Assembly (NCBI GenBank): GCA_964468785.1
Contig: CAYXWK010000011.1
Coordinates: forward strand, 1-8,881
Source: Candidatus Woesearchaeota archaeon
Lineage (GTDB): Archaea > Nanobdellota > Nanobdellia > Pacearchaeales > GW2011-AR1
Direction: 5' to 3'
DNA length: 8,881 bases
Shown in pieces: positions 1 through 8,639 of this stretch (positions are counted from its first letter, which is position 1; each line of letters opens with the position of its first letter). The notes beneath the pieces were generated by a model that was given only the letters and a program-made list of their open reading frames with translations, did no database searches and was not told the origin of the DNA. Position numbers and translations under genes: made by a program.

Positions 1-1
1 C

Positions 2-79
2 GAGGGTTCTGAAGAATGTTTCAGCCAGTATGAATTTGCGAGAATAGGTTTCGAACTAAATGAACCGGGTAGATGTTAG
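2..79 (+). pseudogene. 3' end of a reading frame entering from the window edge (EGSEECFSQYEFARIGFELNEPGRC*), stopped by TAG 77-79. Same frame as 119..1258 and probably the same ancestral gene.
   Basis: Hand translation of frame 2. The peptide aligns without gaps to residues 329-348 of the 5568..7781 product (CLEPFSRLEFGLRTNEPSQC-R-IS vs CFSQYEFARIGFELNEPGRC-*-IS), and the alignment continues across the stop. Confidence 0.5.
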
Positions 80-118
80 ATATCAGCAATTCCACCTACT
101 CTAAACAGCTTTGACGCG

Positions 119-1258
119 ATGACGAGAATAGGTTCTTTCGGAAAAAATCAGACGATAGTTTTCAGAGGAATTAATCTGCCGGACTTAGGATATGAAGGTC
201 AGCTTTCTCAGGAAATTGAAAATGATGTAACTTTGTACGTTGTTTGTGAAGATTATCACGAAAGAAGAAATGAGCTGAGTCCGTTCAAAATTAATCTTTG
301 TGTTACTCCGAGGGACTTTCAGCCGGTCGTTTTGAATAATCTTGGAAGGCAGACTATTCCTCTTGCTTTTGATGCGACAAGTTATGATTTGAGTTTTGAG
401 ATAAATGAAGCTGCGGAGTGTAGATGGGATACGAGAAGTAATCTGAGGTTTAGCGAAATGCCTGCGCAGAATAGTTGTAATGCTGTTCAGATTTCTGGAG
501 GATATAGTTGTAATTTCGGGAGTATTCCTATAAGCGTTCCGACGACAAAATTGTGCGTGAAGTGTCTTGACCATCCTGAGTGGAAAGGAACTAGCAGAGA
601 GGGAGAGAGAAATGAAAATCAGCAATGTGCGAGTTTTGAGATTGTAAAAAGTCCGAGCGCGTTGAGTGCGGAGATAGTTAATCCGGTAAACGGATTTTTG
701 AAGAAAATCGGTGCGGGAATAACTAGTATTGAAGTTTTCGTCAGAACGAACGGGGGCGCGAATTCCGGAAACGCAGATTGTTTCATAAATATAGATGGTA
801 CGGGAGAGCAGCCGTTTAAACAAACAGGTGGAAAAGAACACAAGATGACATTTAATCAGCTGACTGCGGGAGAACACGAGATGAAAATAGTTTGTAGAGA
901 TGGAGTTAATCCACGAGTGACTCTTAACTCAAAGTTCACAATTGAAACAGAAAACACGATTCCGAAAGTTAGTAGAATTTTTTCGAGCGACGGCAAACTT
1001 ATTATTGTTACGGATGAACCAGCAGAATGTGCTTATACCTTTGACAAAGTTGAAGGAAGAAACTCTGCTTGTAACTTCAAAGTAGAAGAGGCATCGAGTT
1101 TAAGCGGAGTATATTTGATGGGAATTGTTTTGGGGAGCGAAGGATTGCGACACGAAACTCAAATTCAACACGGACAAATCTATTATATGAAATGCAAAGA
1201 CATTTATGGAAACGAAGATTCAGGATGTGGAATTATAGCTTCTCCAGGAACATACTAA
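119..1258 (+). CDS. Cysteine-containing Ig-like-repeat surface protein, C-terminal portion. Collinear paralog of the C-terminal half of 5568..7781. As called it has no signal peptide of its own.
   Basis: 379-aa ORF ending in TAA. Recurrent motif [TI][ND]E[PA]xxC[RA][WY] (INEAAECRWD, TDEPAECAYT) is paired with Y/I-x-x-C-x-D strands (LYVVCEDY, MKIVCRDG, YYMKCKDIYGN), in the same order as in 5568..7781. The antisense ORFs here are low complexity. Confidence 0.75.
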   Translation: MTRIGSFGKNQTIVFRGINLPDLGYEGQLSQEIENDVTLYVVCEDYHERRNELSPFKINLCVTPRDFQPVVLNNLGRQTIPLAFDATSYDLSFEINEAAECRWDTRSNLRFSEMPAQNSCNAVQISGGYSCNFGSIPISVPTTKLCVKCLDHPEWKGTSREGERNENQQCASFEIVKSPSALSAEIVNPVNGFLKKIGAGITSIEVFVRTNGGANSGNADCFINIDGTGEQPFKQTGGKEHKMTFNQLTAGEHEMKIVCRDGVNPRVTLNSKFTIETENTIPKVSRIFSSDGKLIIVTDEPAECAYTFDKVEGRNSACNFKVEEASSLSGVYLMGIVLGSEGLRHETQIQHGQIYYMKCKDIYGNEDSGCGIIASPGTY

Positions 1259-1307: not shown

Positions 1308-2006
1308 ATGCTTGAAGGAATAAGAAAATATGTTGCGACTGGACTGGTTGGTTCAGCTTTAGCTTTAAACACGGGATGTTTAGATGTTGCGATGTTTGCA
1401 TTCGGACAGATTGCAGCTCATGAAAGAAGTAAAAGAGAAAGAGAGGTAGTGGAAAGAGAAAATGAAAGAACGAGGAGGGAACTTCAGGAGCTTAGAAATG
1501 AGATTAGAAGGTTAGGAGGTTCTTCGCCGACACACGAGAATAAATACGAACCTCAACGAACAATTCCTATTGAAAACTCGCTACAAGTCAGCACGCGCAG
1601 ATTTAGAGGCTCGGCGACTAATGAAAATCCTGCTTGGGAGAGAAAACCTCACTCAGAATTAACTTTTTTCTGTTCATCTGGTAAAGAATGGAATGACTTA
1701 AATCGGAATGGAATAATGGAAAAAGGAGAGATAGTATCTGCTGAGAGGTTTAGATATGGACAAACAGCCTGGTTTCATGCGGCTCAATTAAATTCAGGAG
1801 ATGTTGAAATTAGATTACATAGAATTTATTTTGAAGGAAACAATTCTATGAGGGAAAATGTTTACAACCACAGAGAATCTGTAAAAGAAAGAGGAAATTT
1901 CAGTCATGCCGTAAACCTGAAAGGGTTTAAACATGGAATGTACGAGGCAATATTGACTAATAACGGTGAAGGTTCCGTAAAAACTGAGTTTAAAATAAGT
2001 CAATAA
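1308..2006 (+). CDS. Membrane-anchored or lipoprotein-like protein with a charged coiled-coil stalk and a C-terminal globular domain; function unknown
   Basis: 232-aa ORF. The N-terminal hydrophobic segment YVATGLVGSALALNTGC has a lipobox-like xTGC. It is followed by ERSKREREVVERENERTRRELQELRNEIRRL (heptad-like, highly charged) and then a ~150-aa mixed domain. Confidence 0.8.
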   Translation: MLEGIRKYVATGLVGSALALNTGCLDVAMFAFGQIAAHERSKREREVVERENERTRRELQELRNEIRRLGGSSPTHENKYEPQRTIPIENSLQVSTRRFRGSATNENPAWERKPHSELTFFCSSGKEWNDLNRNGIMEKGEIVSAERFRYGQTAWFHAAQLNSGDVEIRLHRIYFEGNNSMRENVYNHRESVKERGNFSHAVNLKGFKHGMYEAILTNNGEGSVKTEFKISQ

Positions 2007-2042: not shown

Positions 2043-2820
2043 ATGATGAAAAAAGAGAGATATCTTCTTTTACTTCTTGGCGTTGCGCTTTTTGTCGGTG
2101 CTTCTGGATATGAGATTTTATTTTCGGACGATGTTTTTTTTTAGCACGACTTCTGGAGGAGGAGATGAATGTGAAGATGAGCGCGAAATAGAGGTTTGTT
2201 TTGATTCATGCTTTTTAGATACCTATGCCAGATGCGTCCAATCTATTTCATGCGATGTTCCGCTAAAAGATGGAAAGATTTTATGTGAGAATGTGCCTGA
2301 ATGCGATTGTGACAGTGTTGAACAATGTGAAGAAAATAAAGGGGTTTGTTTGAACGATCTAACACGACGATATGGAGGATGTAGCGAGAAAGAAATACGA
2401 GAAAAAATAGATGCGGAATTGAATGGGTGTACTTACGGTCATGGATTAGCAGGAATTGTTGACAGAATTGAACAATGTGTGGCTGGATTGTTCACAGAAT
2501 ATGGTGTAACAGATCCAACAGGAAAGGACAGAAAACGTATGGATAAGTTGGTTGAGGGTATGATAAAGAAGTGTGAAGAAGACAAGAAAAAATGTGAAAA
2601 AGAAGAAGAAACCTGTAAAAATAATGTCGCAGATTGCAATAGCGCTTTGGAAGAATATGGTGGGCTTGAAAAATGCGTCACAGATTTTCAGAATTGCGTA
2701 AATCCTGAACGTGAAAGAGAGATATGTGAGGCCAAGGTTAAGATTGAATGTTATGATGAAGCTTGGGAAACTTGTCTTCGAGATTGTGTGGAGATGATCC
2801 TTAATTGCCCTGCCAGATAA
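2043..2820 (+). CDS. Secreted acidic 24-cysteine protein, frameshifted. The signal-peptide leader (2043..2144, frame 0, ends at TAG) and the Cys-rich body (frame +1, to TAA 2818-2820) are joined at a T9 tract.
   Basis: Frame 0 gives MMKKERYLLLLLGVALFVGASGYEILFSDDVFF*, a canonical n/h/c signal peptide. The body (STTSGGGDECEDEREIEVCFDSC...) is open in frame +1 from 2077, but its in-frame starts (TTG 2077, ATG 2110, ATG 2131) give no signal peptide. Removing one T from the T9 run fuses the two frames exactly. Confidence 0.7.
2134..2142 (+). repeat. T9 homopolymer at the signal-peptide/body junction of the 2043..2820 gene
   Basis: Counted directly: g-ttttttttt-ag. The 0-frame reads GTT TTT TTT TAG. 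Confidence 0.95.
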
Positions 2821-3016
2821 ATCTCTTAATAATTGTGAAAAATTTAATCACTTTTACTTCGCTGTAAAAATATAAGAGTGAATAATTTTATTTAACTTGA
2901 AACATAGGTTGATGATTTTTATCTTCAGTAATAGCAGTCTGTTCCGCATTTCCAAGATAATTTGTTTTGATGAATTAATTTATACAAAAAATTAACATCC
3001 TCAATTAGCAAAACAA

Positions 3017-3023
3017 TTATAAA
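3017..3023 (+). promoter_or_regulatory. TATA box (TTATAAA) preceded by TAGCAAAACA, about 25 nt upstream of ATG 3045; promoter of the three-gene operon
   Basis: It lies at the 3' end of the longest non-coding gap in the window (2821-3035/3044). The spacing predicts a leaderless transcript starting at about ATG 3045. Confidence 0.5.
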
Positions 3024-3044
3024 GAAATTTTTACTTTGACATTG

Positions 3045-3812
3045 ATGGAAAAAAGAGGGCAGGTTGCGATTTTTGTAATTATCGCGATAGTGATTGTTGT
3101 CGCAGGAATTCTTGTTTATATGTTTTTACCACAGGCAAGAAACCTCATTTCGGGAGAGGTTACACCAACGGAATTTATTCAAAGATGCGTCGAGGATGAG
3201 GTTCAGAGAGGAGTTGAAATTCTTTCAAAACAGGGAGGATATCTTGAACCTGAAGGATATATTATGTATCAAGATAATAAAGTAAAGTATCTCTGCTATA
3301 CTGCGCAATACTATTTGCCGTGCAAAGTTCAGCAACCTTTAATAAAAAGACATTTTGAAAGAGAACTTGAGGGAATGATTGCTGCAAAAACTGCGGAATG
3401 TCTTTCCGAAATGAAAAGAAATTATGAAAGCAGAGGATTTGAAGTTGATGGCGGAGACGAAAGCAGTGTCGGAGTAGATATAATTCCCGGAGTGATGAAT
3501 ATTTTAGTCAGTGCGCCTATGACAATTTCACGCGGAGGTGACGTTCAAAGATTCAATAGTTTCAATGTAAATTACCCGAGCAGACTTTATGAAATACTTG
3601 CGATATCACACAGCATAATAGATTTTGAAGCCACTCTTGGAGATACTTCGACAGATTTATATTACGCATATTACCCTAACTTAGTAATTTACAAAAATAA
3701 ACTTGGAGATGGAACTACGATTTACAAAGTTAGAGATGTTACGACGAGGGAAGAATTTAATTTTGCGTCGAGAAGTTTGGCGTGGCCAGGAGGTTTGGGA
3801 TTAAATGGATAA
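3045..3812 (+). CDS. Pilin-like protein: a class III (prepilin/archaellin-type) signal peptide plus a ~225-aa globular domain
   Basis: From ATG 3045 the N-terminus is MEKRG|QVAIFVIIAIVIVVAGILVYMF: a short basic n-region, a K/R-G|Q cleavage motif and a ~22-aa hydrophobic helix. The ORF-track start (TTG 3036) would lie upstream of the predicted TSS. The stop overlaps the next gene by 8 nt. Confidence 0.85.
   Translation: MEKRGQVAIFVIIAIVIVVAGILVYMFLPQARNLISGEVTPTEFIQRCVEDEVQRGVEILSKQGGYLEPEGYIMYQDNKVKYLCYTAQYYLPCKVQQPLIKRHFERELEGMIAAKTAECLSEMKRNYESRGFEVDGGDESSVGVDIIPGVMNILVSAPMTISRGGDVQRFNSFNVNYPSRLYEILAISHSIIDFEATLGDTSTDLYYAYYPNLVIYKNKLGDGTTIYKVRDVTTREEFNFASRSLAWPGGLGLNG
3789..3794 (+). promoter_or_regulatory. 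Shine-Dalgarno-like GGAGGT 10 nt upstream of ATG 3805
   Basis: A perfect core SD inside the 3' end of the preceding gene. This is typical of internal genes in archaeal operons whose first gene is leaderless. Confidence 0.5.
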
Positions 3813-5565
3813 GAGATTTGCACTCTTTGTTATTTTAGGAGTTATAATTTTTTCTTCAATTGTTGTAAGAATGAGTGCGCAGGAAAACGAGATAGTTGGA
3901 ACTAATCAGGCGACAGTTTGTTGTGAAACAACTCGTTCCGGACTTACTTGCCAGGATGTTTTGGCTGAACATTGTGCCCCAGATAGCAGACAACCTCCGA
4001 CTGCTTGTGAATCAACTTCTTTCTGTCAAACTGGATGGTGTTATGATTCCAAAGAGGGATATTGCTTAGATAATACTCCTCAATTTACTTGCAACAAAGA
4101 AGGAGGAACTTGGAGTCTTGAAGAACCTGCTGTTTGTGGTCTTGGGTGTTGCGTTCTTGATGACCAGGCCGCATTTGTTACGCAGGTAAATTGTAAGAGA
4201 CTTTCAGGATTTGCGGGAATTGAAGCGAATTGGAATCCTACAATAACTAATGCTCCTCAATGTGTTCTAACCGCCGGAAACAAAGAAAAGGGGGCATGCG
4301 TTTATTGGGACAAATTTGAGAGAGGATGTAAATTTACGACTAGGGAAAACTGCGTGGAAGGATTTGTTTATGGAACTACTACGAGCGAGGCAACTCAAAG
4401 TGCAAACGCACAACTTGCAACACAACTAACGCCCGCACCTCAACCAACTATCGGACAGAATAGTTCTAACGGGAGTAGCGTTACCGGCTCGGCAATTCTT
4501 GCAAGTGTAAGTGCGCAGGAAAATACTAATTTTTCAAACTACGGAATAATTGATTTTCACCCAGGAAAACTTTGTTCTGCCGAAGAACTTGGAACCATTT
4601 GCTCTCCGACGGAAAACACGGTCTGTATGCCTGGAAAAGAAGAGGTTTATTTTGTTGACACTTGTGGAAATCCTGCAAATATATATGACGCGTCTAAAAT
4701 AAGGGATAAAAATTATTGGAACGAAATAGTTGAGAAAGCGAATTCGTGCGGGTTTGGTGGTTCGAATGAAGATAGTAAGACTTGTGGGAATTGTAATTAT
4801 TTGCTTGGAAGCTTTTGCAGAAGTGCTGACAAAAATAACCCTACTTATGGAGACAATATTTGTCAAAGTCTGAATTGTGTTGACGGAAATGGGCAGAAAA
4901 AAATTCACGGAGAGAGTTGGTGCATTTACGATGGTGGAACTACTGGTGCGCCGGGAAGCAGAGCATACAGACAGCTTTGTAATAATGGAGAAATAATTGT
5001 TGAACCGTGTGCGGACTTTAGGCAGGAAGAGTGTATTGAAAGCAGTGCAACGGGATTTTCACAGGCGGCGTGCAGAGTAAACAGGTGGCAGGATTGCACT
5101 GCACAAACAGAACAATTTCAGTGTGAAAACGGAGATGTGCGTGACTGCAAGTGGATGCCAGGATTTGAATATGTTTTGTTCGGAAGTGTTTTGAACGGAA
5201 CAACTATTGACGCAAATTCTCTTGGTGCAATTGCGCAGGGATTGAAAGAGATAGGCGGATTGAAGAATGTTCCTGAAGGTTCGTGTGTTCCGAAAACTCC
5301 TCCTGGACTGAACAGAGCGACTGATGAAGCGCCAGCTATTTGTGCGCAGGCGAATGCAGTTTGTCCGGTGAAATATGAAAAGAGTTTGTTGAGTGGAGAG
5401 TGGGAATGTGTCGAGCATTGCGATTGTCTTCCTGGCGGAGCTTTGGAAAAGGCAAGAGTTGAATTATGCATGTCGATTGGTGACTGCGGACCGAAAGTAA
5501 ACTATGTCGGAGTTGCCGGAAGCGGACCGGGTTACAGCGTCGATGAGCGGAAGCTGGATAGCTGA
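3805..5565 (+). CDS. Secreted two-module protein with about 43 cysteines in 586 aa; function unknown
   Basis: N-terminal Sec-type signal MDKRFALFVILGVIIFSSIVVRMSA|QEN. Module 1 (aa ~30-189) has 17 Cys. A T/S/Q/A/P-rich linker spans aa ~190-240. Module 2 (aa ~241-586) has about 26 Cys. ATG overlaps the upstream stop (ATGGATAA), and TGA lies 2 nt before the next ATG. Confidence 0.9.
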   Translation: MDKRFALFVILGVIIFSSIVVRMSAQENEIVGTNQATVCCETTRSGLTCQDVLAEHCAPDSRQPPTACESTSFCQTGWCYDSKEGYCLDNTPQFTCNKEGGTWSLEEPAVCGLGCCVLDDQAAFVTQVNCKRLSGFAGIEANWNPTITNAPQCVLTAGNKEKGACVYWDKFERGCKFTTRENCVEGFVYGTTTSEATQSANAQLATQLTPAPQPTIGQNSSNGSSVTGSAILASVSAQENTNFSNYGIIDFHPGKLCSAEELGTICSPTENTVCMPGKEEVYFVDTCGNPANIYDASKIRDKNYWNEIVEKANSCGFGGSNEDSKTCGNCNYLLGSFCRSADKNNPTYGDNICQSLNCVDGNGQKKIHGESWCIYDGGTTGAPGSRAYRQLCNNGEIIVEPCADFRQEECIESSATGFSQAACRVNRWQDCTAQTEQFQCENGDVRDCKWMPGFEYVLFGSVLNGTTIDANSLGAIAQGLKEIGGLKNVPEGSCVPKTPPGLNRATDEAPAICAQANAVCPVKYEKSLLSGEWECVEHCDCLPGGALEKARVELCMSIGDCGPKVNYVGVAGSGPGYSVDERKLDS

Positions 5566-5567
5566 AT

Positions 5568-7781
5568 ATGATTAAGAAATTTATTGGTGCAGGAGAAATT
5601 TTTTTATTAGTTAGTTTGAGCTTTGCGATTTCGTTTATGATGAGTGAGAATTTTGTTAGTGGGCAGATTGGTATCCTTGATACTATTAATCCGGCTATTC
5701 CTACTCTTCCGAGTTTTAGTCCTTCAAGCATCCCTACGCCTTCTACATTTACTGGTGGTGGAGCTGGCGCAGATTTTGTAGGGCCTCCATCAAGTTTAGC
5801 AAACCCGGAGGTGCTGTTACCCGATCCTAGCCTGCCTAATAGTGGTCTTGGCGTTGGAGAGATTGCTCCAAAAGTTACAGAAACGCAATCATTTCTTACT
5901 GGAAGTGGACCGGGAACGATAAGCGGACTTTTCAAAGGACAATTTTTCGGAGTAGGGCCTGAACTTGGTGGAACTGCTTTTGGAGGAGCCGTTAGTTCTT
6001 TGGCATCTGGACTTGTTTGGGGAGCGATTGTTTACGGAGGTTTGCGCCTTGTTGGAGGGCTGTTTGGATTGAGCGATAGCCAGTCACAAGCGTTAGCTTT
6101 CGCGGGCGGAGCGGGAACTTTTGTCGGAACGACTCTTTATTTTATAGGTCAGAATTTTGGAACTACTGCTTTTTTGACTACCGGAACTGCTGCGTTTATG
6201 TGGGGATTGGGAATTGGTGTTGCAATATTTTTGGCAACTTACAAGAAAGAAAAATCTGAAGTTGTCCAATTTATTTGTGAGCCGTGGCAGCCACCGATAG
6301 GTGGAAGAGATTGCGAGAAATGTAACGAAGACCCTCTGATTCCGTGTTCTGAATACAGATGTACGAGTTTAGGACAGGCGTGTGAAATTAAAAACAAGGG
6401 AACCGAAAACGAAGTGTGTGTCTGGGCGCATCCGGGAGATGTTGATGCTCCGAGAATCACTCCGTGGAACGAAGCACTAAAACCGAGTGAACTAATATAT
6501 ACTCCAGAAGGAAATGGTTATAAAATAACACTGCCCGGCGCGCCTGGTGGTTGTCTTGAACCTTTCTCGCGACTCGAATTTGGATTAAGAACTAATGAGC
6601 CATCGCAATGTAGAATTTCTCTTGACCCAAACGCTACTTTTAACGGGGCGGGAACTTATTTGTTTGGAGGTTCAACTCTTTTTGCGAACGAACATGCGCA
6701 AAGAAACTTTAGAATTCCTAATCCATTTGTACCTGAAGAGGACGGAGATGCTCCGACCATACATAACAACGGATTATTTACTCTTTATGTCAGATGTGCG
6801 GACGCTAACGGGAACGGGATGGATGGCGCGCCTACGCCTTTCAGGTTCTGTGTGCAGCCCGGACCAGATACGAGGGAGCCCGTAATTGAAGGTTTTAATA
6901 TACGGGATGGGAGTGCCGTGAGATATGAAGTTGATTTCGTTCCAATTGAAGTATATACTAACGAGCCGGCTACATGCAGATGGAGCAAGAGCGATAAATC
7001 ATATTCTGATATGGAAAATAGCATGAGATGCGCGACAAGTTCGAGAGACATCGGACCTAACTCTCAATTCACCTGTTCGGGAGAGTTGAGCGGGGTTCAG
7101 GACAGGCAAAACAATACTTTCTACTTTAGATGCTCTGACCAGCCACTTGCTACAATTGGAAGAAACACTATGCAATATAGCGTGCCGTTAACATTGAGAG
7201 GAACACAACCACTGACTATACAAAATACTGCGCCGAGTGGAGAGATAAGAGGAGCAACTTCTTTTGTGAATGTCAATCTTAGCGTTACTACAGCTCACGG
7301 TGCAGATGAAGGAAAGGCGACGTGTTATTATGAATTGAGTGAGAATGGTCCATTTAACATAGCAATGAACGGAGCTGGAACATTTTCCCATTTCCAACCG
7401 CTCCCACGTGAAGCAGGAAATCATAATGTTTACTTTAGGTGTATTGACTCTGGTGGAAATGTCGCGTCCTCGATGACTTCTTTTAATGTATTTGTTGACA
7501 CTCAAGAGCCTATGATAACGAGAATATTCAGAGATGGACAAAGCATAAAGATTATAACTAATGAGGACGCAAGATGTGTTTACTCTCTGAACAGCTGTAA
7601 CTATGAGTTTGAGAGCGGAATACCTTTGACATATGAAACTGTTGGTGGAGATATTGCGCGTGAAAGACATCTTTTGGAATGGAATAAAGAAGTAACATAC
7701 CATATAAAGTGTGAAGATTATCAGGGAAAGAGAGTCGCGCCGAATGAATGTAGTGCAGTAATTCAAGGTGCAGAGTTTTAA
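5568..7781 (+). CDS. Large membrane protein: N-terminal anchor, Pro/Ser-rich linker, glycine-rich polytopic membrane module, Cys-knot region and four Ig-like repeats
   Basis: 737-aa ORF. Hydrophobic aa 8-27; P/S/G-rich aa 40-135; Gly-rich hydrophobic aa ~136-225 (nt ~5973-6242); then YKKEK. Repeats are at nt ~6453-6860, 6876-7202, 7206-7496 and 7503-7778. Their motifs are TNEPSQCRIS...LYVRCADANGN, TNEPATCRWS...FYFRCSD, KATCYYE...VYFRCIDSGGN and TNEDARCVYS...YHIKCEDYQG. Confidence 0.9.
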   Translation: MIKKFIGAGEIFLLVSLSFAISFMMSENFVSGQIGILDTINPAIPTLPSFSPSSIPTPSTFTGGGAGADFVGPPSSLANPEVLLPDPSLPNSGLGVGEIAPKVTETQSFLTGSGPGTISGLFKGQFFGVGPELGGTAFGGAVSSLASGLVWGAIVYGGLRLVGGLFGLSDSQSQALAFAGGAGTFVGTTLYFIGQNFGTTAFLTTGTAAFMWGLGIGVAIFLATYKKEKSEVVQFICEPWQPPIGGRDCEKCNEDPLIPCSEYRCTSLGQACEIKNKGTENEVCVWAHPGDVDAPRITPWNEALKPSELIYTPEGNGYKITLPGAPGGCLEPFSRLEFGLRTNEPSQCRISLDPNATFNGAGTYLFGGSTLFANEHAQRNFRIPNPFVPEEDGDAPTIHNNGLFTLYVRCADANGNGMDGAPTPFRFCVQPGPDTREPVIEGFNIRDGSAVRYEVDFVPIEVYTNEPATCRWSKSDKSYSDMENSMRCATSSRDIGPNSQFTCSGELSGVQDRQNNTFYFRCSDQPLATIGRNTMQYSVPLTLRGTQPLTIQNTAPSGEIRGATSFVNVNLSVTTAHGADEGKATCYYELSENGPFNIAMNGAGTFSHFQPLPREAGNHNVYFRCIDSGGNVASSMTSFNVFVDTQEPMITRIFRDGQSIKIITNEDARCVYSLNSCNYEFESGIPLTYETVGGDIARERHLLEWNKEVTYHIKCEDYQGKRVAPNECSAVIQGAEF

Positions 7782-7804: not shown

Positions 7805-7810
7805 TTTTTT
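7805..7810 (+). terminator. T6 run 24 nt after the stop of 5568..7781; possible archaeal oligo-T terminator
   Basis: Lies in the 70-nt convergent gap between 7781 and 7852. An A5 run at 7823-7827 would give the equivalent T5 for the minus-strand hjc. Confidence 0.3.
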
Positions 7811-7851: not shown

Positions 7852-8247
7852 CTAATTTTCAAAAAACTGACTGAATTTTTTTCCGTTTTCTTTTGCGTCT
7901 TTGAGAGAGATTGCCCAATATTTTCCTGTGTCTTTTAGCTGTTCCGGTATGATGAATATAAATCCTTCGCGATTGAATCTGACTGCAATTACCGGAGTTA
8001 AACCGAGAATGTGGGAGAAAGTTATGAAATCATCTATTTGCTTTTTTGTTATGTATATTGTTGATTTTTTTGAGGACTTGCATTCTATAGTGTATCCTTT
8101 TTTTCCAGATTTTGCGGCTATTAAATCGCAAGGAGAATCATCTCCTACACCGGAGCCAGCGACACGAACTGCGCGCCAGGTTTGTTCTGTGAACAATTGA
8201 ATCAACTCTCTTTCAATTTTAGAACCTTTTGCTTTATTGTTAGGCAT
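7852..8247 (-). CDS. hjc: Archaeal Holliday junction resolvase Hjc
   Basis: 131 aa. KGSKIERELIQLF...AVRVAGSG...CDLIA...YTIECKSSKK..IYITKKQIDDFITFS...G.TPVIAVRF matches the Hjc pattern as I remember it: G-x-x-x-ERE, SGS, the catalytic D in DhIA, and E-x-K followed by IY..K.Q. Ends with TAG. Confidence 0.93.
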   Translation of the reverse strand: MPNNKAKGSKIERELIQLFTEQTWRAVRVAGSGVGDDSPCDLIAAKSGKKGYTIECKSSKKSTIYITKKQIDDFITFSHILGLTPVIAVRFNREGFIFIIPEQLKDTGKYWAISLKDAKENGKKFSQFFEN

Positions 8248-8270: not shown

Positions 8271-8280
8271 TTTATATTTT
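8271..8280 (-). promoter_or_regulatory. TATA-like box (AAAATATAAA on the minus strand) about 28 nt upstream of the hjc ATG (8247)
   Basis: Same spacing logic as the + strand promoters. Abuts the stop codon (8280-8282) of the upstream mini-gene. Confidence 0.4.
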
Positions 8281-8441
8281 CAGTTAGAGAATCGATTGAA
8301 AATCCAGCCGATTGAAATTATAATCAGGATTAACGGAATCCACGGAATATTTATTCTCCAGTAACCAATTTCTGAGAAAAGCCAGACGAGAGCGACTATG
8401 AGAACAATTACTGCGAATGTTGGGAATTTTGTTTTTGCCAT
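8280..8441 (-). CDS. Small (53 aa) two-TM membrane protein; not in the ORF track
   Basis: Hand translation of the minus strand gives MAKTKFPTFAVIVLIVALVWLFSEIGYWRINIPWIPLILIIISIGWIFNRFSN*: two clean hydrophobic helices with basic ends. It has its own TATA-like box about 25 nt upstream and fits the compact same-strand gene spacing. Confidence 0.5.
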   Translation of the reverse strand: MAKTKFPTFAVIVLIVALVWLFSEIGYWRINIPWIPLILIIISIGWIFNRFSN

Positions 8442-8460: not shown

Positions 8461-8472
8461 AATTTATAATTT
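8461..8472 (-). promoter_or_regulatory. TATA-like box (AAATTATAAATT on the minus strand) about 25 nt upstream of ATG 8441
   Basis: Position relative to the mini-gene start. Its upstream end (8472) overlaps the first base of the stop codon (8472-8474) of the preceding gene. Confidence 0.35.
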
Positions 8473-8639
8473 TATAGGTCGCGCGCTTGTAGGGTTCTTC
8501 TGCCGTTTGCTTTTGCACGCTCCGATGCTTCGCCTATGAGTTTTAGAACTTTCTTATTTAGGGCTTCCTCAAATTCCGATGCTACGCTCATACCATCTGC
8601 AACTTCACGAATTTTTGATTTAACAATTATTCCAGTCAT
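8472..8639 (-). CDS. Small (55 aa) histone-fold-like protein; not in the ORF track
   Basis: Hand translation gives MTGIIVKSKIREVADGMSVASEFEEALNKKVLKLIGEASERAKANGRRTLQARDL*. The pattern is helix, loop, long helix, ending ...A.ANGR+T+.A.D+, like the C-terminal part of archaeal histone-fold proteins. From memory it resembles the DUF1931-type mini-proteins; this is unverified. Confidence 0.6.
   Translation of the reverse strand: MTGIIVKSKIREVADGMSVASEFEEALNKKVLKLIGEASERAKANGRRTLQARDL

What the first reader, a model, noticed from the sequence alone, without database searches (positions are those of the whole stretch)
3017..7781. Leaderless three-gene operon (pilin-like protein, 43-Cys secreted protein, polytopic Ig-repeat membrane protein): candidate uncharacterised archaeal surface apparatus
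Seen in sequence: a TATA box lies 25 nt upstream of ATG 3045 after a 215-nt gap. Genes 1 and 2 overlap by 8 nt, with a GGAGGT 10 nt upstream of the second ATG. Genes 2 and 3 are separated by 2 nt. Gene 1 starts MEKRG|QVAIFVIIAIVIVVAGILVYMF. Established knowledge: this is the class III signal-peptide pattern cleaved by PibD/FlaK-type prepilin peptidases in archaeal type IV pilins, archaellins and bindosome-type surface proteins. Gene 2 is a Sec-signal protein with about 43 Cys. Gene 3 joins a Gly-rich multi-TM module to four Ig-like repeats. I recognise no catalytic motifs in any of them, and the window holds no assembly ATPase or platform gene (PilB/PilC, FlaI/FlaJ type). Inference: the three products assemble into one envelope structure made of a membrane base, a pilin-like stalk or anchor, and a disulfide-rich distal component. 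In a small-genome episymbiotic archaeon this could mediate host attachment.
Basis: partly seen in the sequence, partly recalled or inferred. Interest (0 to 1): 0.8.

Follow-up and report, generated by a model that had tools for sequence, protein, structure and literature searches.

The report
Conserved DPANN prepilin-like envelope gene cluster
The three genes are real and form half of a five-gene, two-copy cluster kept in the same order in hundreds of Woese-/Pacearchaeota genomes; it encodes prepilin-like proteins paired with disulfide-rich and Ig-repeat membrane proteins that match no known family or fold, so it is probably an undescribed cell-surface complex whose function is still unknown.

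Summary
Gene coordinates, the 8-nt overlap, the 2-nt gap, the TATA box, 43 Cys and four Ig-like repeats are all as stated.

Upstream lies a paralogous module: a second prepilin-like gene (g1') plus one 1520-aa protein (FUS) that fuses a gene-2-like domain to a gene-3-like protein. The window starts inside FUS.

The order g1'-FUS-g1-g2-(variable insert)-g3 recurs in about 80 species-level Woese-/Pacearchaeota genomes. 478 genomes encode a g2 relative.

- **g1:** it has an invariant [KR]-G|Q class III signal. The AlphaFold2 model is confident (pLDDT 90) but has no PDB match.
- **Promoter:** a BRE/TATA element sits at -28/-29 in 57 of 70 loci, which supports a leaderless transcript.
- **g2:** it is a Sec-secreted protein with about 40 invariant Cys and no structural match, archaeal fusexin included.
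- **g3:** it has a conserved N-terminal helix, a Gly-rich membrane module and four Big_13-type repeats.
- **Conservation:** all three proteins are about as conserved as aspartyl-tRNA synthetase. That argues against a fast-evolving host-specific adhesin.
- **Context:** in one genome context four more small prepilin-like genes and the S-layer gene follow g3.

I read this as an uncharacterised, lineage-wide envelope complex that uses prepilin-like subunits. Host attachment is untested.

The parts
1..1258 (+). 3' end of FUS, the module-A fusion protein (1520 aa in L001). This part holds the end of the first Ig-like repeat and the three further repeats, paralogous to g3.
   Evidence: L001 1129-5691. 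BLASTP of g3 against FUS residues 985-1507 gives E 2e-28. The window equals L001 from 4434 onward, with 4 mismatches.
1308..2006 (+). 232-aa protein with a lipobox-like L-N-T-G-C motif. It is a weak relative of family c7, which in 23 other loci usually sits between g2 and g3. Possible accessory component.
   Evidence: BLASTP E 2e-4 and 20% identity to a c7 member. Membership is uncertain.
3010..3027 (+). BRE/TATA promoter of g1 (AAAACAATTATAAAGAAA). TTATAAA lies at 3017-3023, 28 nt before the ATG, which implies a leaderless mRNA.
   Evidence: Sequence. The consensus and fixed position in 61 of 70 homologous loci are. The transcription start is inferred, not measured.
3045..3812 (+). g1: prepilin-like protein. 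It has the class III signal MEKRG|Q, an N-terminal helix at residues 3-35, and a roughly 220-aa alpha/beta head with 4 conserved Cys.
   Evidence: Alignments A1 and A2. AF2 pLDDT 89.8. No PDB or BFVD fold match. No Pfam or NCBIfam hit.
3045..3059 (+). Predicted class III signal peptide (M1-G5). The predicted cleavage is between Gly5 and Gln6.
   Evidence: Q6 is invariant, and G5 and K3 are at least 90% conserved. The pattern [KR][GA]Q occurs in 111 of 141 g1/g1' proteins. Cleavage itself is inferred.
3790..3795 (+). GGAGGT Shine-Dalgarno-like site for g2, embedded in the codons for the conserved WPGG tail of g1.
   Evidence: An SD-like motif was found in only 24 of 68 loci, so conservation is weak.
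3805..5565 (+). g2: a Sec-secreted, disulfide-rich protein with 43 Cys. It has two folded regions (about 33-190 and 250-586) joined by a disordered Ser/Thr/Gln-rich linker (192-245).
   Evidence: About 40 invariant Cys in 70 homologues. AF2 pLDDT 79.9. Best Foldseek PDB hit is E 0.16. More than 1592 homologues.
5568..7781 (+). g3: a polytopic membrane protein. It comprises a conserved N-terminal helix (residues about 5-27), a Pro/Ser/Gly linker, a Gly-rich hydrophobic module (about 136-225), a 7-Cys knot (237-284) and four Ig-like repeats (296-737).
5973..6242 (+). Gly-rich (GxxxG-type) membrane module of g3, with three hydrophobic segments followed by YKKEK.
   Evidence: Hydropathy. Three segments in 28 of 43 homologues. 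Topology is not resolved.
6453..7778 (+). Four Big_13-type beta-sandwich repeats, each with a conserved Cys pair.
   Evidence: Alignment A5. Big_13 in 44 of 55 homologues, best E 4.8e-8.
7805..7810 (+). T6 run 24 nt after the g3 stop codon. Possible archaeal oligo-T terminator.
   Evidence: Sequence only. Inference.

Best explanation
The three genes are module B of a vertically inherited, lineage-wide envelope gene cluster of Woese-/Pacearchaeota (GTDB Nanoarchaeota). The cluster holds two paralogous modules.

**What each module contains**
- A prepilin-type subunit (g1' or g1).
- A disulfide-rich ectodomain. It is inserted into the membrane protein in module A (FUS) and made as a separate Sec-secreted protein, g2, in module B.
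- A membrane protein (g3) with a conserved N-terminal helix, a glycine-rich membrane module and four Ig-like domains.

**Proposed working (inferred, not shown)**
1. g1 is transcribed without a leader from a conserved BRE/TATA promoter. It is co-translated with g2.
2. A FlaK/PibD/EppA-type class III signal peptidase cleaves g1 after Gly5, leaving Gln6 at the new N-terminus.
3. The g1 hydrophobic helix then either stays in the membrane beside the conserved g3 helix, or is built into a short pilus-like stem together with the four small prepilin-like proteins that follow g3 in one genome context.
4. The novel g1 head binds g2, and g2 docks on the extracellular part of g3.

The result would be a membrane-anchored surface complex beside or through the S-layer. 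Its high conservation points to a core envelope or cell-contact function common to the whole lineage, not to a host-specific adhesin.
For: **Shown**
- Paralogy and fusion: g1 vs g1' gives E 1e-30 over the full length. g2 matches FUS 143-762 with E 8e-40. g3 matches FUS 985-1507 with E 2e-28.
- Synteny in 82 loci from about 80 species: all five genes in 41 loci, and 62 fusion proteins in total. 478 species-level genomes have a g2 relative, and all 80 listed are Woese-/Pace-/Nanoarchaeota MAGs apart from a few labelled only 'archaeon' and one labelled Parvarchaeum.
- Coupling: the g1'-to-FUS and g1-to-g2 gaps have a median of -4 nt.
- Class III signal: Q6 is invariant and G5 is at least 90% conserved. 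The family has 5352 representatives at 50% identity.
- The motif G-1/Q+1 matches the EppA-processed pilins of M. maripaludis (PMC3875500).
- g1 shares its N-terminal 59 columns with a small prepilin-like family (hhalign probability 88%).
- Four small prepilin-like genes and an S_layer_C gene follow g3 in 16-18 loci.
- flaK, flaI and flaJ were detected in most MAGs of one Woesearchaeota study (PMC11606122).
- The promoter is conserved at -28/-29.
- Conservation over the same genome pairs: g2 53.7%, g1 47.0% and g3 46.8% identity, against 50.6% for AspRS.
- Cys content puts g1, g2 and the g3 Ig part with the secreted proteins of these genomes.
Against: - No assembly ATPase, platform protein or class III peptidase lies within 10 kb of the cluster in any locus.
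- One study states that type IV pilus components are missing in groundwater DPANN genomes (bioRxiv 10.1101/2020.05.14.094862).
- g1 has no Pfam Class_IIIsignal/DUF361 hit. It also lacks the +5 Glu of EppA substrates.
- The g1 head resembles no solved pilin or archaellin.
- No physical interaction was tested. No structure jobs remained for a complex or for g3.
- The topology of the g3 Ig part is unresolved. Three hydrophobic segments plus YKKEK would put it in the cytoplasm by the positive-inside rule.
- The four small prepilin-like genes are not next to the cluster in this window's genome context.
Confidence: 0.55

Rival explanations
1. Static envelope scaffold without pilin-type processing. 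The g1 N-terminus is an uncleaved signal anchor. The conserved Arg-Gly-Gln is a juxtamembrane motif that pairs with the conserved Glu/Gln at the start of the g3/FUS helix. The complex spaces or anchors the S-layer or shapes the pseudo-periplasm.
For: - The S-layer gene lies a few genes downstream in 18 loci.
- Conservation is at housekeeping level.
- No ATPase or platform gene is nearby.
- The g3 and FUS N-terminal helices carry a conserved E/Q at the same membrane boundary.
- The g1 head is unlike any pilin head.
Against: - An invariant Gly-Gln directly before a 22-residue hydrophobic helix is the signature of class III cleavage.
- Five further families in the neighbourhood carry the same kind of N-terminus.
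- FlaK is common in the lineage.
Confidence: 0.22
2. Contact-dependent membrane-insertion or fusion/pore device used on the host. The Gly/Ala-rich hydrophobic segments of g3 and FUS act like fusion peptides or glycine-zipper pore formers. The disulfide-rich g2 domain is the target-binding head.
For: - GxxxG-rich, weakly hydrophobic segments sit next to a large stable ectodomain.
- The cluster is near-universal in a lineage that is thought to depend on hosts.
- Invariant sequence would fit a conserved membrane target.
Against: - There is no structural similarity to any fusogen. Fsx1 scores E 3.2 with TM 0.08, and GP64 scores E 6.2.
- There is no viral relative.
- The idea rests on composition alone.
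Confidence: 0.1
3. The S-layer itself, with g2 as the canopy and g3 as the stalk, as in SlaA/SlaB.
For: Two-part architecture with a membrane-anchored beta-sandwich protein and a large secreted partner.
Against: - These genomes carry a separate 813-aa S_layer_C protein nearby.
- That protein evolves faster than g2 over the same genome pairs: 44% vs 60% identity.
- In g3 the beta-sandwich repeats follow the membrane segments, whereas SlaB is anchored at its C-terminus.
Confidence: 0.05
4. Three unrelated genes that are adjacent by chance, or a mobile or viral island.
For: Toxin-antitoxin genes are inserted between the genes in some genomes.
Against: - The order is conserved in about 80 species beside housekeeping genes.
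- There is a domain fusion.
- There is no PHROG hit and no viral contig hit.
Confidence: 0.02

Closest known systems
Euryarchaeal EppA-processed type IV pilin-like proteins (DUF361 / Class_IIIsignal, e.g. M. maripaludis EpdA-C, MMP1685)
   Same: A short basic signal ends in Gly, with Gln at +1, followed by a hydrophobic helix of about 20 residues. Several pilin-like paralogues are scattered away from the ATPase locus.
   Different: There is no +5 Glu in g1 and no Pfam hit. The 220-aa head has no known fold. The gene is coupled to a Cys-rich protein rather than to pilus biogenesis genes.
Bacterial minor-pilin / PilY1 tip complexes and the T2SS pseudopilus tip (GspH-I-J-K)
   Same: Several small pilin-like proteins occur together with a large non-pilin, Sec-secreted partner, encoded side by side.
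   Different: There is no sequence or fold similarity. g3 and FUS have their own membrane module. No major pilin or motor has been identified.
Class III-signal substrate-binding proteins ('bindosome') of Sulfolobales and others
   Same: A class III signal is used on a functional globular surface protein rather than on a filament subunit (bioRxiv 10.64898/2026.04.22.720090).
   Different: There is no SBP fold or Pfam domain, and no ABC transporter nearby.
Archaeal fusexin Fsx1 / class II fusogens
   Same: A large disulfide-bonded ectodomain is followed by several C-terminal membrane segments, in an archaeal context.
   Different: Foldseek gives E 3.2 and TM 0.08 over 65 columns, so there is no real match. 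The cluster is not on a mobile element.
Woese-/Pacearchaeota-specific families of unknown function ('Module 98', Castelle et al. 2021, PMC8204110)
   Same: The same lineage restriction and the same predicted membrane or extracellular location. These genes probably belong to that set.
   Different: That paper only lists families. The cluster, its duplication, the fusion and the class III signals are not described there. I did not check its supplementary table for these families.

Membership tests
Archaeal class III signal peptide (prepilin-like) proteins | Basic n-region, [KR] at -2, G/A at -1, then a hydrophobic stretch of about 20 residues (FlaFind-type pattern) | tested here: met
   g1 reads MEKRG|QVAIFVIIAIVIVVAGILVYMF. 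The pattern is found in 111 of 141 g1/g1' proteins. G5 is at least 90% conserved and Q6 is invariant.
Archaeal class III signal peptide (prepilin-like) proteins | Cleavage by a PibD/FlaK/EppA-type peptidase encoded in the same genome | not testable with these tools
   Only 10 kb on each side of the cluster could be read, and no A24 peptidase lies there. Literature: flaK was detected in most Woesearchaeota MAGs of one study.
Archaeal class III signal peptide (prepilin-like) proteins | Long N-terminal alpha-helix carrying a globular head ('lollipop') | tested here: met
   The AF2 model has a helix at 3-35, a helix at 41-62, then an alpha/beta domain, with pLDDT 89.8.
Pfam PF04021 Class_IIIsignal (DUF361), EppA substrates | Profile match. 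Gly -1, Gln +1, Glu +5. | tested here: not met
   There is no Pfam hit for g1 or any of 59 homologues. G-1 and Q+1 are present, but +5 is Phe/Tyr. The criteria are from PMC3875500.
Type IV filament system (pilus, archaellum) | Secretion ATPase and polytopic platform protein associated with the pilins | tested here: not met
   None of the conserved neighbour families in 82 loci is an ATPase or platform protein. Such genes elsewhere in the genome could not be examined.
Type IV filament system (pilus, archaellum) | Head domain related to known pilins or archaellins | tested here: not met
   The best Foldseek PDB hit is E 0.0099 with TM 0.18 or lower, and no pilin appears among the hits.
Bacterial Ig-like domain Big_13 (g3 repeats) | Pfam profile match | tested here: inconclusive
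   The window protein scores E 0.0066, below the curated cut-off. Among homologues, 44 of 55 match, with best E 4.8e-8. The four repeats align with each other.
Fusexin / class II fusogen (g2) | Three-domain beta-rich fold detectable by structure comparison | tested here: not met
   Fsx1 (7p4l) scores E 3.2 with TM 0.08.
Archaeal S-layer protein | Match to S-layer families, and being the only such protein of the genome | tested here: not met
   g2 and g3 have no S-layer Pfam hit. A separate S_layer_C protein is encoded nearby in related genomes.

The most novel reading that the evidence does not exclude
The cluster encodes the lineage-defining cell-contact machine of Woese-/Pacearchaeota. It would be a short pseudopilus made of six prepilin-like proteins that presents two disulfide-rich heads (g2 and the FUS ectodomain). 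Their glycine-zipper membrane modules would insert into or bridge the partner membrane to take up lipids and metabolites. That would make it a new kind of prokaryotic cell-cell interaction apparatus, unrelated in fold to any known pilus tip, adhesin or fusogen.
Probability: 0.12. Interest if true: 0.9.

Novelty: new variant of a known kind. Interest (0 to 1): 0.62.

Why it matters
Woesearchaeota and Pacearchaeota are among the most widespread uncultured archaea. They are thought to live attached to other cells, but no surface apparatus for contact has been identified in them.

This cluster is a concrete candidate, for these reasons:
- It is near-universal in the lineage.
- It is restricted to the lineage.
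- It is extracellular.
- It is duplicated.
- It is as conserved as a tRNA synthetase.
- It is built from folds with no solved relative.

It also extends the use of class III (prepilin) signals to a new kind of partner protein. In addition, it gives ready markers for metaproteomics, cryo-ET labelling and heterologous expression: the g1 head and the g2 Cys pattern.

If it turns out to be a plain S-layer anchor, it would still fill a gap in DPANN envelope biology.

Tried and rejected
- **Family libraries.** Pfam, NCBIfam and PHROGs gave nothing above threshold for g1, g2, g3, g1', FUS and the two genes in between. Pfam on all 59 g1 homologues returned only chance hits to the membrane helix.
- **Solved structures by sequence.** Profiles of the three families found nothing in PDB sequences.
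- **Solved structures by fold.** Foldseek of the g1 model against PDB and BFVD, and of the g2 model against PDB, gave no match with TM above 0.2 for the query. The fusexin idea and the LptE-like idea were dropped for that reason.
- **Viral origin.** No g2 relative was found in IMG/VR.
- **S-layer identity.** Rejected because a separate S_layer_C gene is present.
- **Sequon density as a topology test.** It was not decisive. g1 and g2 are depleted (0.44-0.50 observed/expected), and the g3 Ig part is intermediate at 0.71.
- **Counting membrane segments.** A crude hydropathy count gives 3 segments for g3 and 4-5 for FUS, which leaves the side of the Ig domains open.
- **SD conservation before g2.** It is weak: 24 of 68 loci.
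- **RNA genes.** Rfam and tRNA scans of the window were empty.
- **Not possible here.** I could not search whole genomes for the class III peptidase, ATPase or platform genes.


Full report
**1. Observation**

The window is archaeal. It carries Hjc (Pfam E 7e-22, NCBIfam E 1.4e-27) and a histone-fold gene on the minus strand downstream. All homologues come from Woese-/Pace-/Nanoarchaeota MAGs.

- g1 is 3045-3812 (255 aa).
- g2 is 3805-5565 (586 aa, 43 Cys).
- g3 is 5568-7781 (737 aa, 84 Gly, 21 Cys).

They have an 8-nt overlap and a 2-nt gap. GGAGGT lies at 3790-3795. TTATAAA lies at 3017-3023, 28 nt before the g1 ATG.

**2. The promoter is real**

I aligned 70 homologous loci on the g1 start codon. 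The consensus is cgnAAnAATTATAAAnAAA. The TATA element starts at -29 in 45 loci, -28 in 12 and -30 in 4.

The element is so constant that many public gene calls translate it as an N-terminal 'NNYK' extension. A BRE/TATA element at this distance implies transcription starting at or next to the ATG, so the mRNA would be leaderless. This follows from established archaeal promoter geometry. It was not measured.

**3. The unit is larger than three genes**

A Logan assembly of the same population extends 4.4 kb upstream. It is L001, identical to the window apart from 4 mismatches in 8771 nt. It shows a second, paralogous module:
- a 256-aa protein, g1' (24% identical to g1 over the full length, E 1e-30);
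- overlapping it, a 1520-aa protein, FUS.

FUS residues 143-762 match g2 (E 8e-40). FUS residues 985-1507 match g3 (E 2e-28). The window's 'ORF' at 119-1258 is only the tail of FUS.

FUS has the g3-type N-terminal helix. It then carries a g2-like domain where g3 has a Pro/Ser/Gly linker, followed by the Gly-rich membrane module and the Ig repeats. This fusion is the strongest evidence that g2 and g3 work as one entity. It also shows that the loop after the N-terminal helix is extracellular.

**4. Distribution and synteny**

A scan of one genome per species found 478 genomes with a g2 relative. The 80 best are all Woese-/Pace-/Nanoarchaeota MAGs, apart from a few labelled only 'archaeon' and one labelled Parvarchaeum.

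I mapped HMMs of the three families on these loci. The order g1'-FUS-g1-g2-(insert)-g3, all on one strand, appears in practically every locus that is long enough. There are 62 fusion proteins, and all five genes are present in 41 loci.

| Junction | Median gap | Loci with gap of 10 nt or less |
|---|---|---|
| g1' to FUS | -4 nt | 53 of 58 |
| FUS to g1 | 40 nt (holds the promoter) | 0 of 61 |
| g1 to g2 | -4 nt | 56 of 77 |
| g2 to g3 | 1001 nt | 7 of 54 |

The g2-to-g3 interval is an insertion hot spot. It holds toxin-antitoxin genes, a GT4 glycosyltransferase (9 loci) or a lipoprotein-like gene, c7 (in most of its 23 loci). The tight g2|g3 junction of this window is therefore unusual.

Two genome contexts exist:
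- CobA ... cluster ... Hjc-AspRS, as in this window.
- Primase-PCNA ... cluster, followed directly by four small genes, a regulator and an 813-aa S_layer_C protein.

**5. g1 is prepilin-like, with a new head**

In 59 homologues Gln6 is invariant, and Gly5 and Lys3 are at least 90% conserved. A hydrophobic stretch of about 22 residues follows. 111 of 141 g1/g1' proteins fit the FlaFind-type pattern. Gly at -1 and Gln at +1 are the hallmarks of the EppA-processed pilins of M. maripaludis. Those also have Glu at +5, which g1 lacks (PMC3875500).

No Pfam model, Class_IIIsignal included, matches g1 or any homologue. The AF2 model is confident (pLDDT 89.8, pTM 0.80). It has a helix at 3-35, a helix at 41-62, and then an alpha/beta domain with four conserved Cys. 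Foldseek finds nothing similar in the PDB (best E 0.0099, TM 0.18 or lower) or among viral models.

A profile search of 1.84 billion representatives finds 5352 related clusters, 513 of them below E 1e-30.

The four small genes after g3 in the second context (about 167, 315, 175 and 169 aa) start KG|SIEISF.., KG|FEFSF.., KG|QFKIQQM.. and KG|QEEIVGF... They share only their N-terminal region with g1 or with each other. hhalign gives g1 vs c17 a probability of 88% over 59 columns, and c15 vs c16 96.9% over 40 columns. That is the pattern typical of pilin families. The neighbourhood can therefore hold six prepilin-like proteins.

**6. g2**

Its N-termini are variable Sec-type signals ending ..SA|Q. 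About 40 Cys are invariant in 70 homologues. AF2 gives two well-modelled regions joined by a disordered linker at residues 192-245 (pLDDT 79.9).

Foldseek against the PDB gives no hit better than E 0.16. The top hits are small disulfide-rich modules (factor XII, fibronectin type I) and are not significant. Archaeal fusexin scores E 3.2. No relative occurs in viral contigs.

**7. g3**

The N-terminal hydrophobic segment is not a generic signal peptide. In both g3 and FUS it follows a conserved pattern: basic residues, about five residues, then (E/Q)(I/M)(F/L)LL(I/V)x(M/L)(S/T)FA(F/I)(A/S)(F/Y). In many FUS proteins the Glu lies five residues after [KR][GAS], as in bacterial pilins. However, the -1 residue varies (G, A, S, T, N, K), so I do not claim processing.

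A Cys-free, sequon-free Pro/Ser/Gly linker follows, and then three Gly-rich hydrophobic segments ending in YKKEK. After that come a knot of seven conserved Cys and four repeats, each with an invariant Cys pair (TNE..C and Y.F.C.D). Family-wide the repeats match Big_13 (44 of 55 homologues).

The side of the membrane on which the repeats lie is not settled:
- Parity of the segments and the positive-inside rule suggest the cytoplasm.
- The paired Cys suggest the outside. So does a Cys content of 4.2%, against 0.3-1.9% for the other neighbour proteins compared and 2-8% for the secreted ones. One FUS homologue has a clean two-helix hairpin between the g2-like domain and the repeats, which also points outside.

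I favour an outside location, at roughly 70%.

**8. Rate of evolution**

Over the same genome pairs, identity is 53.7% for g2, 47.0% for g1 and 46.8% for g3, against 50.6% for aspartyl-tRNA synthetase. The S-layer protein is less conserved than g2: 44% vs 60% where PCNA is 72%. Module A evolves faster (38-42%).

Surface proteins that determine host range usually diverge quickly. This cluster does not. It is more likely a core machine, or it binds an invariant target.

**9. Mechanism**

The best-supported reading is a membrane-anchored surface complex. A prepilin-type subunit is made together with a disulfide-rich ectodomain, and is presumed to bind it. That ectodomain sits on a glycine-rich membrane protein that carries Ig-like domains. 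The whole arrangement is present in two paralogous versions.

Shown:
- the composition of the cluster;
- the paralogy and the fusion;
- gene coupling and the promoter;
- the lineage distribution;
- the lack of any known relatives.

Inferred:
- cleavage of g1;
- contacts between the proteins;
- location at or through the S-layer;
- any role in cell contact.

A class III peptidase, an ATPase and a platform are reported for most MAGs of one Woesearchaeota study. Another paper states that type IV pilus parts are missing in groundwater DPANN. None is near the cluster, and I could not search whole genomes.

**10. Comparison with what is known, and novelty**

The N-terminus places g1 among class III signal proteins. 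Nothing else in the three proteins belongs to a described family. The families are probably among the unnamed Woese-/Pacearchaeota-specific families of Castelle et al. 2021, and no description of the cluster was found.

I rate it a new variant of a known kind: a surface system based on prepilin-like proteins, with new folds and partners. A small chance remains that it is a new kind of cell-contact machine.

**11. Verdict**

Interest is 0.62.

Noticed in passing
window 77-79 (also 70): The window has TAG where the Logan assembly of the same population (L001) has TCG. This puts an in-frame stop in the FUS gene at the codon for Ser1131. It could be strain variation, a sequencing error or a pseudogene. 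A second mismatch lies at position 70.
   Followed up: partly
window 7948-7949: A two-base difference (TA vs AT) between the window and L001, inside the Hjc gene on the minus strand.
   Followed up: no
window 2077-2820: A 247-aa ORF with 24 Cys and a hydrophobic N-terminus lies between FUS and g1. It has no homologue in the other 81 loci and no Pfam, NCBIfam or PHROG hit. It may be another secreted Cys-rich protein specific to this genome.
   Followed up: partly
L002 10773-11081 and 17312-17967; P0032 locus; many loci: The interval between g2 and g3, and sometimes the one between g1 and g2, is an insertion hot spot. It holds nucleotidyltransferase/HEPN toxin-antitoxin pairs and HicA, and in 9 loci a GT4 (AglH-like) glycosyltransferase.
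   Followed up: partly
public protein calls P0002-P0120: Many database versions of g1 carry a false N-terminal extension reading ..NNYK(E/Q).. This is the translated TATA box (AAT TAT AAA). The start codons of this family are widely mis-called.
   Followed up: yes
e.g. L007 4091-4276, L067 832-1017 (family c8, 23 loci); L003 2255-2410: A 61-aa winged-helix (FaeA-like, Pfam E 5e-5) gene sits directly upstream of g1' and often overlaps it. In other genomes a 44-51-aa gene occupies that place; two of these (L002 and the P0195 locus) carry a weak RHH_1 hit. This may be a dedicated regulator. It is absent in this window's genome.
   Followed up: partly
P0240, P0244, P0292: Some g2 homologues are about 100-150 aa longer and carry a cupredoxin (PF00127/PF13473) domain.
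   Followed up: no
g1, g2 and the g3 linker across 80 loci: N-glycosylation sequons are depleted in g1 and g2 (observed/expected 0.44-0.50). They are completely absent from the g3 N-terminal linker in 40 homologues, whereas the other neighbour proteins compared, mostly cytosolic, range from 0.8 to 1.9.
   Followed up: partly
window 8280-8441 and 8472-8639 (minus strand): A 53-aa two-helix membrane protein, and a 55-aa histone-fold/DUF1931-like protein (Pfam E 0.003-0.009, below cut-off). The latter is conserved next to Hjc in related genomes.
   Followed up: no
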